Below are positions 53,719-62,378 of a DNA stretch of 64,000 nucleotides, piece after piece. How positions within the stretch are numbered: the first letter of the stretch is position 1; every line of letters begins with the position of its first letter. Source of the stretch: a virus; IMG/VR virus record IMGVR_UViG_3300031703_000001, positions 32,001-96,000 of that record, one strand, 5' to 3'. Under the pieces are notes generated by a model. It had not been told where the DNA came from and searched no databases. It saw only the letters and a list, made by a program, of their open reading frames with translations. The translations under genes and the position numbers were made by a program.

Positions 53719-56199
53719 TTAACCTCCCATTTTTCCTGTATAGAATGGAACCACCATCCTTTTTATTTCTTTTCCTTTTGCTGCACCTGTTGGGTAACCT
53801 AGAGAAGCCTGCCTTGCAGCTAATTCTTCTTGACCTTGATTTCCATATGCACGTTGTGCAGAAGGCATCTGTCTATATTTTAAAAACATATCCATATCCT
53901 TTGCAGTACCGCTAGGATTTTCTCTTCTATATTCAGACATTGCTTTATATAAAGCTTGATCTCTTGATTCTTGAGTTTCAGGAGCACCTACTTTTTCAAA
54001 GGCTTTGGCATTTGTAAATCCTATTGGACCTCCCGTTGTAGGATCAATTGCAAAGTTATCAAAAGTACTATTCAAGTTATATGTATTAGCTCTATTAGTT
54101 AATGCAGCATTTTGTAATTTAACGTTTTCACCAACCTTCCAGTTTTTGAAGTTATCATGTTTTTGCAAAACATTTTGAGTATCATCATAAACCTTTGTTT
54201 GCCTTCTTGCATTTTCAGTATTTGCTCTATCAGTATACTGCGCTTGTAGTGCACCATACTGGTTAGCTATACCAACATTATTAGTATTAACTCTATTAAT
54301 TGCTTTGGCATTTGCATCCATTGCTTGACCTTGTATTTGTGAATTTGCCACGGCTTGAGGTCCACCAACTGCTCCTAAAGCATTAGCCACAGTACTTGCA
54401 GATGCATTGTTGGAATTAACAGCAGATCTCCAATCATCAAATGTAGGCGCTAACTGAACTGTCTCAGCTGTAGGTGCCCATGGTAAATATAAATTATCAT
54501 CTATCTGACTTAGAGCAGCCAAGTTGTTTTGATCTTGTAACCAAAATTCCATATCAGGCTGAACATACGCATCAGGATCTTTAACTCCTATATCAGGTCT
54601 ACTTGGTTCTTCACCATATACAGCTTCATCAGAAAAAGAGTTGCTCTTGGTAAGCTTAGGTGCATTAAAAGTATGTAAACCATATTTACCATCATAACCC
54701 GTTCCTTCAGTACCTTTTTCTGTAAACCATGGTTCATAAGGAACTCCTGCTGCTAAAGCATCCGCTTTTCTTTCTACTTCTATATTTTTTTGAAAGGCTC
54801 TAGTTTGTTCTTTAGGCATGTCCCAACTCCAAGTTTTACCTGAATCTGCCTCATACTTTTTCATAGCAGATCCCCATCTTCTTTCTAAATCTAATCTTGC
54901 TTCTGGAGTTTGTATATCATTTGAACCATAAGTACCTGTTCCTGTAGAGTTTTGAAATGTAGGTCTATTTACATCAGCTCCTGAATACATTCCATTATCA
55001 TTAAAGTATTCAGCATTTTCTCCAAACGCTTTATCTTGACCTTCAATAGCTTCATTATAAATTGGTCTTGAACCTTTACCTTTTAAATCTCCAGCTTGAC
55101 TTCTGTCTACTTGATTATTTGATGTATTTGGTTTAGAGTTTATAGATGCTTTTGTTTTCCCATTAGGTAACGTTGTATATGTTATTGTAGCACCTTTCTT
55201 TAATTCAGGAAGCCATTTAGCCCATTGTGCATCAGATACACCTGGATTTTCAAATTCAACCTCATCATCTGTAGAACCTGTATTACCAGTTCCTGTTTGA
55301 GCTTTCCTTAATGTTCTTTCACCACCAAACCTTGCTAGAATAGCACTGTCCATTTCAACACCTTGCTCAGGCATTTGTTGTTGTTGACCTTCAGGTATTT
55401 GACCTTGTTCAGGTTGTTCCATTTGAGCCATCATCTGTTGCATTTGTAACATTTGCTCTAATTGCTCTGGTGGCATTGCAGCCATTGCTTTCATTTGTGC
55501 TTCTTGCATAGTTATTTCTTCCATCTTTGCTGTAAATTCAATTGGGTCTATTCCTTGCTGAACCAAATAAGGATGGGCAGCCAAAGGTACACCTTCTTCA
55601 AATTTCTTTTTTGATTCTTGTGTAAATGCAACTTTAGAAAGATTCATCATATTCTTCTTCAACATTAATTCTGCTGTAGTAGCTTGAATCTTATCTGCAT
55701 AAGGAGATTCTAAATGTGCATAGTAATCATTTAACTGATACTTCTTTGATAACTTAGCAGGTGTCATTTTCTTTTTGGAGTTAATTCCAAATTCTGATAA
55801 CTCATCACTAGTAAATTTCATTTTATCTGTATCAGAATAAATAAATGATTGTTCAGGTAAGAACATTGGAACTCCACCTTTAGAGTGTCTAGGCCCCTTA
55901 ATGTCATATAAACCAAATGTACCATCATTAGTTAAATCTGTTAATACAGTTTCTCCACCTTCTGCTTCTATATTAGCATTGTCTTTAGGAACACTTGATA
56001 GACTGTATCTTACACTCTTGCTATCAGCGTCATTAAAGTTATTATTGCTATAGAAGTCTTGTGGAGTTGTCACCAAACCATAATCAGCTTGATCACCAGT
56101 TTGTAGATCACCACCGTTCTTCATAAATTTGTCTTCAACAACTTTGCCGTCAACTAATTTAAATCCTTCTGGTAATTTATTTATTTTAATTTTTGCCAT
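53719..56199 (-). CDS. probable capsid cargo protein
   Basis: NIEAEGGE...GPRHSKGGV...FIYSD domain, Q/M-rich linker, N/A/Q-rich C-terminal helices; ends in KMGG. Confidence 0.6.
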   Translation of the reverse strand: MAKIKINKLPEGFKLVDGKVVEDKFMKNGGDLQTGDQADYGLVTTPQDFYSNNNFNDADSKSVRYSLSSVPKDNANIEAEGGETVLTDLTNDGTFGLYDIKGPRHSKGGVPMFLPEQSFIYSDTDKMKFTSDELSEFGINSKKKMTPAKLSKKYQLNDYYAHLESPYADKIQATTAELMLKKNMMNLSKVAFTQESKKKFEEGVPLAAHPYLVQQGIDPIEFTAKMEEITMQEAQMKAMAAMPPEQLEQMLQMQQMMAQMEQPEQGQIPEGQQQQMPEQGVEMDSAILARFGGERTLRKAQTGTGNTGSTDDEVEFENPGVSDAQWAKWLPELKKGATITYTTLPNGKTKASINSKPNTSNNQVDRSQAGDLKGKGSRPIYNEAIEGQDKAFGENAEYFNDNGMYSGADVNRPTFQNSTGTGTYGSNDIQTPEARLDLERRWGSAMKKYEADSGKTWSWDMPKEQTRAFQKNIEVERKADALAAGVPYEPWFTEKGTEGTGYDGKYGLHTFNAPKLTKSNSFSDEAVYGEEPSRPDIGVKDPDAYVQPDMEFWLQDQNNLAALSQIDDNLYLPWAPTAETVQLAPTFDDWRSAVNSNNASASTVANALGAVGGPQAVANSQIQGQAMDANAKAINRVNTNNVGIANQYGALQAQYTDRANTENARRQTKVYDDTQNVLQKHDNFKNWKVGENVKLQNAALTNRANTYNLNSTFDNFAIDPTTGGPIGFTNAKAFEKVGAPETQESRDQALYKAMSEYRRENPSGTAKDMDMFLKYRQMPSAQRAYGNQGQEELAARQASLGYPTGAAKGKEIKRMVVPFYTGKMGG

Positions 56200-56201
56200 G
56201 A

Positions 56202-61400: not shown

Positions 61401-62378
61401 ACGCGGCTCATCAACATCTAACATTTGTGTAAGTGCTGGATCTGATGTATTAGCAGCTCTCTTTGTTGCATTTGCATAGAACTCTGAAGGCTTACTATTA
61501 AACCAATTTCCATCAGCATATTTAGTTACATCATCAAATGCTGTATTAGTAACATTGGCATCTTCAAATCTATTTAATCTTATTGCTTTTGATTTAGGTA
61601 CTTTTTTAACTCCAGTATTAGTCCAGATGCTAACCATTTCTTCAGCTACATCATCAGCAATTTTTTTAATTGTAGGTGCAGCTTTTTTAATTGTAGGAAC
61701 TGCATTCTTACCTTTTGATAAATAAGCAGGAACAATAGGTATTGCACCTAATGCATTAAAACCAGCATCTAAATATTCACCTTTATCATAACTTTTTTTT
61801 GCTTCTTGTCCATATTTAATCCAAGCAAATGGATTAATCATATCTGCTACATTATCAAAAGCATTTCTATCTGGATTATCTAATGGTAAATTATCAGGTA
61901 TATCTTTATTTCTTGCACTATACCCAAAAGAAGTCATAGGGCTTGCTAACATATCTAATGTTCTTTGTCCCCATGAAGGTTCTTCATATGCTTTTATTGT
62001 ACCTGTATCAGGTGCTTTAAAATCAGGATTATTCTTTTGATACTCAGCAATGTATTTAGAGTAATCAGTTTCACCATTTTCCAGTTTAGGTAATTCTTTA
62101 CCATCCTGTGCTAAAGGTACTTCTAAGACACTATCTCCAGGAAAAGTATAGTTCATACCTGGCATCATAGTTTGTCTATTACCAAGGTTGTCTGTACCTA
62201 CTACAGGAAAGTTTACACCTTCCATAGTTATATCTCCTGAAGGAATTATATTATAGGGGTTGTTTACATCAGGACTATCAGATTTATATCCATCTATAGA
62301 TAGAAATTCATGTATATCCGTAATGTATTCATTTGGACCTCCAACTAACCCTATTGATTTTCTTTCTTTATGTGCCAT
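58479..62378 (-). CDS. multidomain virion protein: candidate ART, lysozyme-like, 2x LysM, L,D-transpeptidase (YkuD), second lysozyme-like domain
   Basis: IAQVES..STATGLYG; YTVASGDNLGKIA and YKVKSGDTLGKIA; AIHGT..SNGCING; GTESEFG..SVGYTQIR..DLLDP. Confidence 0.8.
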   Translation of the reverse strand: MAHKERKSIGLVGGPNEYITDIHEFLSIDGYKSDSPDVNNPYNIIPSGDITMEGVNFPVVGTDNLGNRQTMMPGMNYTFPGDSVLEVPLAQDGKELPKLENGETDYSKYIAEYQKNNPDFKAPDTGTIKAYEEPSWGQRTLDMLASPMTSFGYSARNKDIPDNLPLDNPDRNAFDNVADMINPFAWIKYGQEAKKSYDKGEYLDAGFNALGAIPIVPAYLSKGKNAVPTIKKAAPTIKKIADDVAEEMVSIWTNTGVKKVPKSKAIRLNRFEDANVTNTAFDDVTKYADGNWFNSKPSEFYANATKRAANTSDPALTQMLDVDEPRRFFSMMTDEATFKSMSGSNMPQRARDMSGGSGAAFHPDEAVLPPELVNMMREAKDQTASWFNTSIVNTKDGMQEMLDFYKKYGGSLRKAQEGKEISKPKTWQETTIDLEGIKRGIAQVESVNGVLMVNPESTATGLYGQRFSEVEKGKLYEGTRAEFAKDLDAQNEIFDIRLNKGFDATETTPLLKDAFDLTVEYKSQLGDKWNYSYEDLIGLSNFLGRGGARKYLGNVVRDGKSLESVYPHLYGNGKKQSNKKPEEYLKTLREYYQYGGERDNVYNPYETYVQPQDNTYVARPDMYQMNDESLIETNGSTIPTFSIDSNEGFNAIEAKAGNKKYTVASGDNLGKIANRYNTSVDELVKLNNISDPNSISVNQELNIPEAPSTAAVSPIYKVKSGDTLGKIAKAYKTSVNTLAKLNGISDVNKIAVNQEIAIPDTYRADVPMPEENWYNVDELKKNNDNINSQSDGDIIIKSQMLNNPNQSYVVIDKKTGLLKVYRGDHEDLSFEVLTGSNRGDAQTVTKMKDLNKDGKITDEDKINGKWKTDWTAGNKSTGAGRYTINQSSPTSKKKYQNAPSWNLLNDNGIQVGTAIHGTTNYRKQFYNDGDATNNSASNGCINGQCSDLDALYNLGLPTGTPVFILPEDEGNHFELNDGVAVMRMNKENRENYISQYKDQTGKLQDQQGGNYTTNTLSYKPIRANFDEETFMEERFTVLDFDDTEELNNTTYPFIHALENNKQQIMSAAQISGDVYNQIAKIAFGIYGTESEFGDTHGIVGNALRGANKKFGSDGSSPDVQRKYQGFDIPFTDVGDGAQSDNNSVGYTQIRWSQLNDKEKSILNAFDITSNKDLLDPAKAAIATASILGVRYNEQLTADQKKDMWNTLPTKWNNRPNYSKRVKANSKYLNFEQKDVMKKGGETENHIMYKNYVDGVYDGNKMEVTAGKVYDKLNRMHYKDAKAMNMTPANYILTHIVGQR

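What the first reader, a model, noticed from the sequence alone, without database searches (positions are those of the whole stretch)
53719..62378. Recurring [FYMA]-[KQMR]-x-G-[GK] motif marks domain borders in cargo proteins: candidate di-glycine processing or packaging system
Seen: three adjacent genes otherwise show no obvious similarity but repeat one short motif. 1299 aa: LAQDGKE (~62100), KKYGGSLRKAQEGKE (~61120-61165), YQYGGE (~60595), MKKGGE (~58665). 738 aa: KQMGGQ, AQEGVE, FQEGSE, FKYGGSLKKYQMAG (~56815-56855), AKYGKE. 826 aa: MKNGGD, ARFGGERTLRKAQTG (~55291-55335), AAKGKE, and a C-terminal KMGG-stop. A double form, [KR][YF]GG-x(1-3)-L[RK]K[AY]Q, occurs once in each gene. In the 1299-aa protein the four sites fall between the N-domain, the ART-like part, the first lysozyme, the LysM/LDT/lysozyme block and the tail. 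The same motif occurs in two basic micro-proteins 27-30 kb away (26016-26309, four copies; 23731-23907, FMDGGD). I did not see it recurring in the replication-arm proteins. Established: adenovirus protease cuts (M/L/I)xGG|X and ASFV pS273R cuts GG|X to mature core polyproteins. Inference: these are virion polyproteins cut into separate effectors at the motif, or the motif is a capsid-loading tag. The protease could be one of the vRNAP zincins or lie outside the window.
Basis: partly seen in the sequence, partly recalled or inferred. Interest (0 to 1): 0.85.

Follow-up and report, generated by a model that had tools for sequence, protein, structure and literature searches.

The report
Junction tag in crassvirus cargo proteins
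Three injected "cargo" proteins and two tiny basic proteins of an uncultured crAss-like phage share one short conserved peptide that sits at every module joint; it is real and I found no published description, but whether it is cut by a protease or stays as an uncut docking handle is still open.

Summary
The window is part of a 107-kb crAss-like phage (Pfam: Crass_capsid, crAss_MUZ, ring proteins 1 and 2). The three genes lie between the muzzle gene and the giant virion RNA polymerase, where crAss001 has cargo protein C1.

- **Enrichment:** The strict form [FYM][KQMR]xGG scores 8 against 0.
- **Relatives:** in 80 related phage loci it is 4-10 times over shuffles in the three cargo genes only.
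- **Micro-proteins:** both are conserved at the same positions in three complete relatives, one with seven copies.
- **Position:** sites lie in low-confidence linkers, and cassette break-points cluster on them (61 of 113 within 15 aa; 11 expected).
- **Refined consensus:** (E-L-P-K)-[AMYF]-[QKR]-x-G-[G]-[E/D]-[ILVT]. Only the first Gly is invariant, so "di-glycine" is too narrow.

No S77, S78, adenain, C48, C57 or C39 protease was found. The only packaged peptidase-like motif is a conserved HEAFH in the giant protein, which lacks the tag.

My reading: a specific recognition tag. Uncut docking or packaging handle about 0.4, protease site about 0.33.

This scan noted the same tag in at least 12 other genomes.

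The parts
58479..62378 (-). Cargo gene '-2' (1299 aa, P0001). It consists of a conserved N-terminal carrier of about 95 aa, swappable cassettes (unknown module, lysozyme-like module, 2x LysM + YkuD + lysozyme-like block) and a conserved C-terminal tail of about 60 aa. Its start overlaps the muzzle gene's stop by 1 nt.
   Evidence: Pfam LysM x2 and YkuD. BLAST segment ends against relatives cluster at the tag sites. AF2 puts tags at model residues 7-22, 193-198 and 837-842, all in pLDDT<50 linkers.
62091..62120 (-). Tag copy VPLAQDGKEL (aa 87-96), after the N-terminal carrier domain.
   Evidence: The same site ([FVL]E[VI]P[ML]AQxGxE) is present at residues 75-115 in 38 of 57 relatives.
61116..61172 (-). 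Double tag DFYKKYGGSLRKAQEGKEI (aa 403-421).
   Evidence: About 16% of all copies in relatives are this double form, G[FY]K[YE]GG[SD]LPKAQxGxE.
60585..60614 (-). Tag copy REYYQYGGER (aa 589-598), after the first lysozyme-like module.
58653..58682 (-). Tag copy KDVMKKGGET (aa 1233-1242), in front of the conserved C-terminal tail (...YDKLNR...PANYI...).
   Evidence: It falls exactly in the short low-pLDDT linker 836-843 of the AF2 model.
56202..58418 (-). Cargo gene '-1' (738 aa, P0002). It has an N-terminal leader ...NKISLKQMGG-Q, internal tags, and a tag followed by a conserved C-terminal tail (...LAKLIAAGADIEIL).
   Evidence: An N-terminal [KQ]xGG is present in 53 of 68 relatives, and a tag 20-50 aa before the C-terminus in 66 of 68.
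58374..58403 (-). N-terminal leader tag ISLKQMGGQS (aa 6-15).
57996..58025 (-). Tag copy QLQAQEGVEI (aa 132-141).
57795..57824 (-). Tag copy IPQFQEGSEV (aa 199-208).
56814..56864 (-). Double tag TEGFKYGGSLKKYQMAG (aa 519-535).
56280..56309 (-). Tag copy MGTAKYGKEV (aa 704-713), in front of the conserved C-terminal tail.
53719..56199 (-). Cargo gene '0' (826 aa, P0003), 2 nt downstream of the 738-aa gene. More than 780 homologues in public protein data and 309 loci in IMG/VR.
   Evidence: AF2 mean pLDDT is 51 and all tag sites lie in segments below 50.
56104..56133 (-). N-terminal tag DKFMKNGGDL (aa 23-32). M26, G29 and G30 are invariant in 21 diverse homologues.
55291..55344 (-). Double tag AILARFGGERTLRKAQTG (aa 286-303), inside an otherwise hypervariable Gln/Met-rich linker.
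   Evidence: Q301 is invariant; M288, A289, G292, E294 and G303 are at least 90% conserved; G293 is not conserved.
53767..53784 (-). Tag copy AAKGKE (aa 805-810). G809, K810 and E811 are invariant in the family.
53719..53733 (-). C-terminal copy KMGG plus the stop codon. The family ends ...PFYTGKMG-x, and x varies (G/R/K/A/S/T/Y/N).
26016..26309 (-). Micro-protein A: 97 aa, pI 10.1, four tag copies (KQGGGE, MKKGG, YKMGG, YMNGG). A 2-nt gap separates it from the 447-aa fibre-like gene downstream.
   Evidence: Syntenic homologues or analogues occur in G002 (80 aa), G003 (58 aa) and G004 (113 aa, 7 copies). These are the only small ORFs in any frame with this many copies.
23731..23907 (-). Micro-protein B: 58 aa, pI 11.1, leader ...KKFMDGG-D followed by an Arg/Lys-rich tail. 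It lies downstream of a 153-aa membrane protein.
   Evidence: Syntenic counterparts in G002 (89 aa, 5 copies) and G003 (102 aa, 4 copies).
62378..64000 (-). Context: 3' part of the 2049-aa muzzle gene, which runs out of the window.
   Evidence: Pfam crAss_MUZ, E = 1e-21. Ring proteins 1 and 2 lie upstream.
50447..53659 (-). Context: the '+1' protein (1070 aa) in the position of crAss001 cargo protein C2. It has no tag enrichment.
   Evidence: ESM-atlas feature match to crAss_CARGO2 clusters at 0.91, a lead only. No Pfam hit. Motif ratio 0.6-1.4.
44167..44181 (-). Context: HEAFH zincin-type motif at residue 2079 of the 4688-aa virion RNA polymerase giant (36349-50415). It is the only peptidase-like element expected to be packaged with the cargo.
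   Evidence: Conserved in 51 of 59 relatives.

Best explanation
The motif is a short linear recognition peptide, a 'junction tag'. Its consensus is (E-L-P-K/M)-[A/M/Y/F]-[Q/K/R]-x-G-[G>x]-[E/D>x]-[I/L/V/T], and it often occurs as a tandem pair.

It marks the proteins in the cargo-protein-1 slot of this crAss-like phage, between the muzzle gene and the C2/RNA-polymerase genes. Each of the three proteins has the same layout:
- a conserved N-terminal leader or carrier that ends in a tag;
- a string of swappable modules, here cell-wall enzymes, joined by tags;
- a final tag in front of a conserved C-terminal tail.

The two basic micro-proteins are little more than tags plus Lys/Arg.

I think it most likely that one phage partner reads the tag while the particle is built, and that the tag stays uncut. 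In that reading it is a flexible joint that doubles as a handle. The handle loads and holds these extended, thread-like proteins, and the tag-only micro-proteins, in the capsid/portal/tail-barrel cargo space until ejection.

Shown: the motif, its enrichment, its conservation, its place at module borders and in disordered linkers, and the gene context.

Inferred: that a partner binds it, that it is not cut, and where the proteins sit in the particle.
For: Specific and selected:
- 17-fold denser in the five proteins than in the rest of the genome.
- 4-10 times over shuffles in the three cargo positions of 80 related loci, and about 1 times in their neighbours.
- Invariant residues inside an otherwise hypervariable linker.
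- Conserved as peptide and not as DNA.

At joints:
- 61 of 113 BLAST segment ends lie within 15 aa of the four sites of the 1299-aa protein. Random placement gives 11, maximum 23.
- Tags flank SLT, LysM and YkuD domains in relatives.
- All sites fall in pLDDT<50 linkers of two AF2 models.

Intrinsic function, not a passive hinge: the syntenic micro-proteins made of 2-7 tags have no modules to join.

For 'uncut':
- No maturation protease of any family known to cut at GG or GxE was found, and none in the head or tail modules.
- The capsid protein, the +1 protein and the giant polymerase lack the tag.
- Only one Gly is invariant, with no fixed residue next to it.
- crAss001 gp45 has similar aromatic-x-GG seams that flank both segments seen by cryo-EM. 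The 425-552 model starts at AFGG and runs through it.
- Published ejection proteins of N4 are packaged unprocessed (PMC5512222).
Against: - No partner is identified.
- In crAss001 two of the three seams next to ordered segments (AYGG 207-210 and FAYGG 559-563) are themselves not resolved, so there is no direct picture of a docked tag.
- Up to seven copies per protein at irregular spacing is more than a loading signal needs.
- Packaged proteins without the tag (the +1 protein and the polymerase giant) evidently load by another route.
- In every well-studied virus where one short motif recurs at domain borders of internal virion proteins (T4, phiKZ, adenovirus, ASFV, poxviruses; my knowledge), it is a protease site.
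- I could not show homology between these proteins and gp45.
Confidence: 0.4

Rival explanations
1. The tag is a protease recognition site. The three cargo proteins would be polyproteins loaded through their conserved ends and then cut at each tag. That would release free cell-wall enzymes and other effectors. The micro-proteins would be cut into short basic peptides, as adenovirus pX gives Mu and T4 gp67/gp68 give internal peptides. The enzyme would be the packaged HEAFH zincin of the polymerase giant, an unrecognised phage protease, or a host enzyme.
For: - Sites at every module border, after a short N-terminal leader and before the C-terminal tail, all in disordered linkers.
- Micro-proteins that are strings of sites.
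- The 826-aa family stops exactly one residue after the invariant Gly, like a ready-made cleavage product.
- The pattern 'long side chain, x, invariant G, then G or other' formally resembles the adenain rule (M/I/L)-x-G-G|x or x-G-x|G. The enriched G-x-E resembles the phiKZ rule S/A/G-x-E| (rules from my knowledge).
- A conserved zincin motif travels with the cargo. Zincin processing of virion polyproteins has been proposed before (PMC5512222; bioRxiv 10.1101/2020.03.07.982082).
- Cleavage would also explain how parts of crAss001 gp45 lie 420 A apart on both sides of the portal.
Against: - No S77, S78, C5, C48, C57 or C39 protease was detected.
- There is no protease between the portal and capsid genes.
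- The capsid protein and the giant 'polyprotein' itself lack the site.
- No residue beside the invariant Gly is fixed.
- The crAss001 model runs through AFGG 425-428.
- No processing is reported for crAss001 virion proteins.
Confidence: 0.33
2. The tag is a passive structural joint or cap. It would be a flexible Gly-containing hinge that lets neighbouring modules fold and unfold independently during ejection. It would be kept at cassette borders because recombination between cargo genes happens there, with no dedicated binding partner.
For: - Cassettes are exchanged at these sites.
- The sites are disordered in AF2 models.
- The copies are degenerate.
Against: - A hinge does not need a specific 10-12 residue consensus with invariant Ala/Met, Gln/Lys, Gly and Glu positions.
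- The DNA of the copies is too different for homologous recombination.
- It does not explain tag-only micro-proteins conserved in four genomes.
- It does not explain the tag at the extreme N- and C-termini.
Confidence: 0.15
3. The recurrence is a chance or composition effect in Gly/Lys/Gln-rich, low-complexity proteins.
For: The motif was defined after looking at the proteins. The cargo proteins are rich in G, K, Q and E.
Against: - Composition-preserving shuffles give 4-10 times fewer copies.
- Sites are positionally conserved across more than 60 distinct relatives.
- A matrix trained on relatives finds 11 of its 16 hits (score >= 9) in the three cargo proteins of this genome.
Confidence: 0.02

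Closest known systems
Cargo protein C1 (gp45) of Bacteroides phage crAss001 (Bayfield et al. 2023, PMC10172136; PDB 7QOG chain M and four further entries; Pfam PF25725 crAss_CARG1)
   Same: - Same gene slot, directly after the muzzle gene and before C2 and the RNA-polymerase genes.
- Long, largely disordered, thread-like virion protein.
- gp45 also has aromatic-x-GG seams: FDTGG at residue 20 after a basic N-terminal leader, then AYGG 209, AFGG 332, AFGG 427 and FAYGG 562. These flank the two segments seen by cryo-EM.
   Different: - Three genes here against one in crAss001.
- No detectable sequence or profile similarity and no PF25725 hit.
- The tag here is longer and includes LPKAQ and Glu.
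- Cell-wall enzyme cassettes are inserted.
- The paper does not describe any such motif or any processing.
Capsid-targeting sequences and gp21 cleavage sites of T4 internal proteins; S/A/G-x-E sites of phiKZ-like inner-body proteins (my knowledge of the literature)
   Same: A short shared signal on proteins packed in the head and injected. An N-terminal leader followed by the signal. Multiple sites per protein. Gly-x-Glu is enriched here.
   Different: Those systems have a recognisable prohead protease (Pfam S77 or relatives) that also trims capsid and scaffold proteins. None was found here, and the capsid protein has no site.
Adenovirus protease (adenain) with core precursors pVII and pX, and ASFV pS273R
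   Same: A consensus with an invariant Gly, followed by Gly or another residue, preceded by a long aliphatic side chain. Small basic DNA-core proteins carry the same sites as large structural precursors.
   Different: No clan CE protease gene (Pfam C5, C48, C57) in this genome. The register differs by one residue. Cleavage is not shown.
Polyvalent proteins of phages and conjugative elements (Iyer, Burroughs, Anand, de Souza, Aravind 2017, PMC5512222)
   Same: Virion-delivered multidomain proteins mix peptidoglycan-attacking and other effector domains, with extensive domain shuffling. That paper proposes processing by zincin-like metallopeptidase domains. The 1299-aa protein fits this architecture.
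   Different: That work defines no conserved junction peptide. The zincin motif here sits in a neighbouring protein, not in the tagged ones.

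Membership tests
Crassvirales cargo protein 1 (crAss001 gp45, Pfam PF25725 crAss_CARG1) | Gene located between the muzzle gene and the C2 / virion RNA polymerase genes | tested here: met
   crAss_MUZ, CrAss_Ring_1 and CrAss_Ring_2 lie directly upstream. Order in crAss001. Same order in 80 related loci.
Crassvirales cargo protein 1 (crAss001 gp45, Pfam PF25725 crAss_CARG1) | Portal-binding CARG1 domain detectable by the Pfam model | tested here: not met
   PF25725 hits gp45 424-555 and phi14:2 g070 76-137. It does not hit P0002 or P0003, nor any frame of the genome at E<=10.
Crassvirales cargo protein 1 (crAss001 gp45, Pfam PF25725 crAss_CARG1) | Sequence or fold similarity to gp45 | tested here: not met
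   hhalign probability 0.4%. BLASTP E>0.8. phmmer against PDB found nothing. Foldseek found nothing, but the model is poor.
Crassvirales cargo protein 1 (crAss001 gp45, Pfam PF25725 crAss_CARG1) | Present inside the virion, bound to the portal and tail barrel | not testable with these tools
   Uncultured phage; no proteomic or structural data.
Clan CE (adenain / ASFV pS273R / poxvirus I7) Gly-Gly-directed virion maturation | A clan CE cysteine protease encoded by the virus | tested here: not met
   Pfam C5, C48 and C57 gave no hit at E<=1 in six frames. The genome is 94% complete.
Clan CE (adenain / ASFV pS273R / poxvirus I7) Gly-Gly-directed virion maturation | Substrates carry x-G-G|x or x-G-x|G sites with a fixed hydrophobic P4 | tested here: inconclusive
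   There is an invariant Gly followed by Gly in 30% of copies, but the preceding positions are [AMYF]-[QKR]-x, not [MIL]-x.
Clan CE (adenain / ASFV pS273R / poxvirus I7) Gly-Gly-directed virion maturation | Precursors are cleaved at the sites in mature particles | not testable with these tools
   Needs virion proteomics.
T4 gp21 / phiKZ gp175-type prohead protease systems | Prohead protease gene (Pfam S77, S78 or relatives) in the head module | tested here: not met
   There is no protease family among the head-module proteins.
T4 gp21 / phiKZ gp175-type prohead protease systems | Sites of the type small/aliphatic-x-Glu on internal proteins and also on capsid or scaffold proteins | tested here: inconclusive
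   G-x-E is enriched at tags (Glu 34% against 7%). The capsid protein and the 434-aa scaffold-position protein carry no convincing tag.
Polyvalent proteins (Iyer et al. 2017) | One virion-delivered polypeptide with several unrelated effector domains | tested here: met
   The 1299-aa protein has LysM x2 and YkuD plus further modules. Relatives carry SLT, PG_binding_1, LysM and YkuD in varying order.
Polyvalent proteins (Iyer et al. 2017) | Zincin-like metallopeptidase domain in the same polypeptide, proposed to process it | tested here: not met
   There is no HExxH in the three cargo proteins. HExxH occurs only in the 4688-aa giant and in a DUF2201_N protein of the replication arm.
Double-glycine leader peptides / C39 peptidase | C39 peptidase domain, and the leader consensus E(-8)L(-7)..I(-4).G(-2)G(-1) | tested here: not met
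   No C39 hit. The E-L-P-K-A-Q-x-G-G register is shifted by one residue relative to the leader consensus (consensus from my knowledge).

The most novel reading that the evidence does not exclude
Crass-like phages use a so far undescribed maturation code. A packaged protease cuts the cargo-slot polyproteins and the tag-only micro-proteins at [AMYF]-[QKR]-x-G-[G]-[E] sites. The protease could be the conserved HEAFH zincin of the RNA-polymerase giant or a new family. Cutting would turn a few genes into a set of free injected effectors and basic core peptides. The same cutting would explain why parts of crAss001 cargo protein gp45 are found on both sides of the portal.
Probability: 0.33. Interest if true: 0.85.

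Novelty: new variant of a known kind. Interest (0 to 1): 0.6.

Why it matters
Crassviruses are among the most abundant phages in the human gut and are common in the sea. How they pack and inject several megadaltons of protein is an open question. The only structural study left most of the cargo unresolved.

- **A handle on the cargo:** a single conserved tag on all proteins of the C1 slot gives a concrete, mutable handle on that problem. It predicts which proteins travel together, including two unannotated micro-proteins. It also predicts where the modules begin and end, and what to look for in existing virion mass-spectrometry data.
- **If the tag is cut:** it defines a new phage maturation protease specificity and changes the published picture of one chain threaded through the portal.
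- **If the tag is not cut:** it is a portable loading or joint signal that could be used to load foreign modules into phage particles. It would also explain the rapid cassette exchange in these genes.

Tried and rejected
- **DNA repeat or recombination site:** rejected. Codons under the copies differ.
- **Close cultured relatives:** tblastn of P0002 and P0003 against 50,697 phage records found nothing. A single-sequence scan of IMG/VR found nothing. An alignment-based scan then gave 309 loci.
- **Homology of the 826-aa N-terminal region to the portal-bound domain of gp45:** this is suggested by eye (IEAEGGE.. against INEGGSHE..). It is not supported by hhalign, BLASTP, Pfam or Foldseek, so I kept it as a lead only.
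- **AF2 of the 826-aa protein:** poor (pLDDT 51). It only shows that the tag regions are not confidently folded.
- **Band sizes of gp45 in crAss001 virions:** not given in the text or supplements I could read.

Ideas considered and dropped without a test that could support them:
- Gln-Lys cross-linking by a transglutaminase. Arg and Met occupy the same position, and a cross-linked net could not be ejected.
- Sortase-like LPxTG. The signal is LPKAQxG, there is no sortase, and the host is Gram-negative.
- Mimicry of the GroES mobile loop or the GroEL GGM tail, although the phage encodes GroEL and Cpn10.
- RGG-box DNA binding, because many copies are acidic.
- Processing of the giant polymerase polyprotein at the same tag, because the tag is not enriched there.

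Full report
**What the window is.** The window is bases 32001-96000 of a 107,390-bp IMG/VR virus record judged 94% complete. Pfam identifies:
- a Crassvirus major capsid protein;
- the Crassvirus muzzle protein, with tail ring proteins 1 and 2 directly upstream of the finding;
- a GroEL and a Cpn10;
- ribonucleotide reductase.

The gene order on the minus strand is ring 2, ring 1, muzzle (2049 aa), 1299 aa, 738 aa, 826 aa, 1070 aa, then a 4688-aa and a 1976-aa protein. This is the order muzzle gp44, cargo C1 gp45, cargo C2 gp46, polymerase proteins gp47-50 of Bacteroides phage crAss001. The three genes of the finding therefore fill the C1 slot. The 1070-aa protein resembles C2 only by language-model features, not by Pfam.

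**The observation.** In the whole genome:
- The strict form [FYM][KQMR]xGG occurs 8 times against 0.
- Shuffles of the five proteins give on average 1.75 and 0.5 copies.

The pattern was chosen on these proteins, so I tested it on relatives. The 826-aa protein has more than 780 homologues in public protein data and 309 loci in IMG/VR. I took 80 of those loci with 10-kb flanks, and the gene order is conserved in them.

The strict motif is 6.3, 9.6 and 5.2 times over composition-preserving shuffles in the three cargo positions. It is 2.3, 1.4 and 1.9 times over shuffles in the muzzle, the +1 protein and the polymerase giant. Copies per protein have a median of 3, 3 and 2 in the cargo positions, against 0-1 in the neighbours.

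A position matrix trained on the relatives finds 16 hits at score 9 or more in this genome. Eleven are in the three cargo proteins and one is in the 97-aa micro-protein, while shuffled proteomes give 3. The nucleotide sequences under the copies differ, so selection acts on the peptide.

**What the motif really looks like.** From 474 distinct copies, the consensus is E-L-P-[K/M]-[A/M/Y/F]-[Q/K/R]-x-G-[G]-[E]-[I/L/V/T]-[K/P].
- Only the first Gly is fixed.
- The next residue is Gly in 30% of copies.
- The residue after that is Glu in 34%, against a 7% background and 6% in control proteins.

In a 21-sequence alignment of the 826-aa family (mean column identity 46%), the linker is otherwise hypervariable. 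Yet Q301 is invariant and M288, A289, G292, E294 and G303 are at least 90% conserved, while G293 is not.

The family ends ...G-K-E-I-K-R-M-V-V-P-F-Y-T-G-K-M-G-x. The final residue can be G, R, K, A, S, T, Y or N. "Di-glycine" is therefore too narrow a name, and the terminal "KMGG-stop" is not a conserved Gly-Gly end.

**Where it sits.** Each family has the same plan.
- **1299-aa family:** starts ...K-S-I-G-L-P-G-G-P-N-E. It has a carrier domain of about 90 aa closed by [FVL]-E-[VI]-P-[ML]-A-Q-x-G-x-E, then variable cassettes, then a tag and a conserved tail of about 45 aa (...Y-D-K-L-N-R...).
- **738-aa family:** starts M-K-V-N-K-I-S-L-K-Q-x-G-G. It ends with a tag followed by ...L-A-K-L-I-A-A-G-A-D-I-E-I-L.
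- **826-aa family:** has M-x-x-G-G at residues 26-30, the double tag in the linker, G-K-E about 17 residues from the end, and the terminal K-M-G-x.

BLAST of the 1299-aa protein against the relatives' cargo proteins splits it into blocks: 1-95, 97-420, 408-620, 655-1235 and 1236-1299. These blocks occur in different combinations in different phages. Of 113 distinct internal segment ends, 61 lie within 15 residues of one of the four tag sites. Random placement gives 11, and never more than 23 in 2,000 trials.

In relatives the tags directly flank SLT, LysM and YkuD domains. AF2 of residues 400-1299 puts the three tags of that stretch in low-confidence linkers. The last tag falls exactly in the eight-residue gap between a confident lysozyme-like domain and the helical tail. 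In the AF2 model of the 826-aa protein, all tag sites are in segments below pLDDT 50.

**The micro-proteins.** This is the part of the finding that adds most. I assembled three complete relatives, G002, G003 and G004.
- The 97-aa protein lies 2 nt upstream of a 447-aa fibre-like gene. It has counterparts at the same place in G002 (80 aa, 3 copies), G003 (58 aa, 2 copies) and G004 (113 aa, 7 copies).
- The 58-aa protein lies after a small membrane protein. It has counterparts in G002 (89 aa, 5 copies) and G003 (102 aa, 4 copies).
- The sequences have diverged almost completely except for the tags and the Lys/Arg content (pI 10-11).
- A six-frame scan of all small ORFs finds no other small ORF with three or more copies in any of the four genomes.

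Proteins that consist of tags and nothing else argue that the tag has a function of its own and is not just a hinge between modules.

**Cut or not cut.**

*For cutting:*
- the position at every module border and after short leaders;
- the strings of sites in the micro-proteins;
- the stop codon one residue after the invariant Gly in the 826-aa family;
- the formal likeness to the adenain and phiKZ rules;
- a conserved HEAFH zincin motif in the packaged giant, a domain for which processing roles have been proposed.

*Against cutting:*
- Six-frame Pfam searches find no S77, S78, C5, C48, C57 or C39 peptidase.
- Head and tail modules hold no peptidase family.
- The capsid protein and the giant itself lack the tag.
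- No residue next to the invariant Gly is fixed.
- In crAss001 the seams FDTGG 20, AYGG 209, AFGG 427 and FAYGG 562 bracket the two segments resolved by cryo-EM, 214-245 in the tail barrel and 425-552 on the portal. The 425-552 model begins with A-F-G-G and continues through it.
- Neither crAss001 paper reports processing. The data I could read do not give gp45 band sizes either.

I could not show that these proteins are homologous to gp45, so that argument is by analogy only. I put an uncut docking or packaging handle at about 0.40, a protease site at about 0.33, a passive hinge at about 0.15 and chance at 0.02.

**Comparison and novelty.** The kind of thing is known from T4, phiKZ and adenovirus: a short shared signal on proteins packed into a virus head. 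The modular architecture fits the polyvalent proteins of Iyer et al.. I found no paper that describes this peptide in five of my full-text searches or in the papers I read.

Earlier notes of this scan describe the same tag in at least 12 other crAss-like genomes, with the same open question. I used them as leads only. What this window adds:
- the conserved tag-only micro-proteins;
- the Glu position;
- the variable last residue of the 826-aa family;
- the break-point statistics;
- the negative protease searches.

Noticed in passing
window 24670-26013, 24387-24665 and 21541-23706 (minus strand): Three genes of the fibre-like cluster start with the same kind of N-terminal peptide: MNILTDVLSLFKRKK, MSTLLQDMMGMLSRKK and MSIFIQEVLGLLKIGKRK. 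The same holds in G002 and G003. This looks like a shared attachment adaptor for different fibres.
   Followed up: partly
window 26322-26465 (minus strand): A 47-aa ORF just upstream of micro-protein A (...EIAFHWPHDRFALGW...) is conserved in the distant relative G004 (97339-97488). No function is known.
   Followed up: no
window 19825-21456 (+) and G000:C1:16009-16380 (-), outside the window: The phage encodes both a full GroEL (PHROG E = 3e-175) and a Cpn10/GroES-like protein (Pfam E = 8e-13). This is unusual for a crAss-like phage.
   Followed up: partly
window 36349-50415 (minus strand), residue 2079 (nt 44167-44181): A zincin-type HEAFH motif (context YHEAFHGVFRMLL) is conserved in 51 of 59 relatives' giant proteins. 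A second HExxH (HEQDH) lies at residue 4433.
   Followed up: partly
window 8162-9325 (+) and 9683-11008 (+): A DUF2201_N putative metallopeptidase with a VWA-like domain (HELLH) lies next to an AAA/MoxR-like ATPase in the replication arm. It is a second candidate peptidase, but it is not in the virion module.
   Followed up: partly
L086 (Cellulophaga phage phi14:2) 20360-22141, gene g070: The annotated 'tail protein' g070 has the crAss_CARG1 domain at residues 76-137. It also has two HExxH motifs (HEFTH, HEFIH), each preceded by a ..GG[MP]VDPP seam. It is a cargo protein with two zincin-like modules.
   Followed up: no
window 56197-56204 and 62376-62380: The 738-aa and 826-aa genes are separated by only 2 nt (TAA-TC-ATG) here and in all related loci. 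The muzzle stop and the 1299-aa start overlap by 1 nt (TAATG). This suggests coupled translation of the muzzle and cargo genes.
   Followed up: partly
G003 24246-24443 and G004 98148-98333 (relatives, loci L101 and L110): Another small basic protein (...GNYTKPGMRK...GQWSARKAQML...) is conserved in two relatives. I did not look for it in this genome.
   Followed up: no
window 50447-53659 (minus strand): The 1070-aa protein after the cargo genes has a strongly conserved N-terminus (MATYVPG..YLPDIKPFTPDYKFLS) in all relatives. It matches crAss_CARGO2 clusters only by language-model features, and it is about twice as long as crAss001 gp46.
   Followed up: partly
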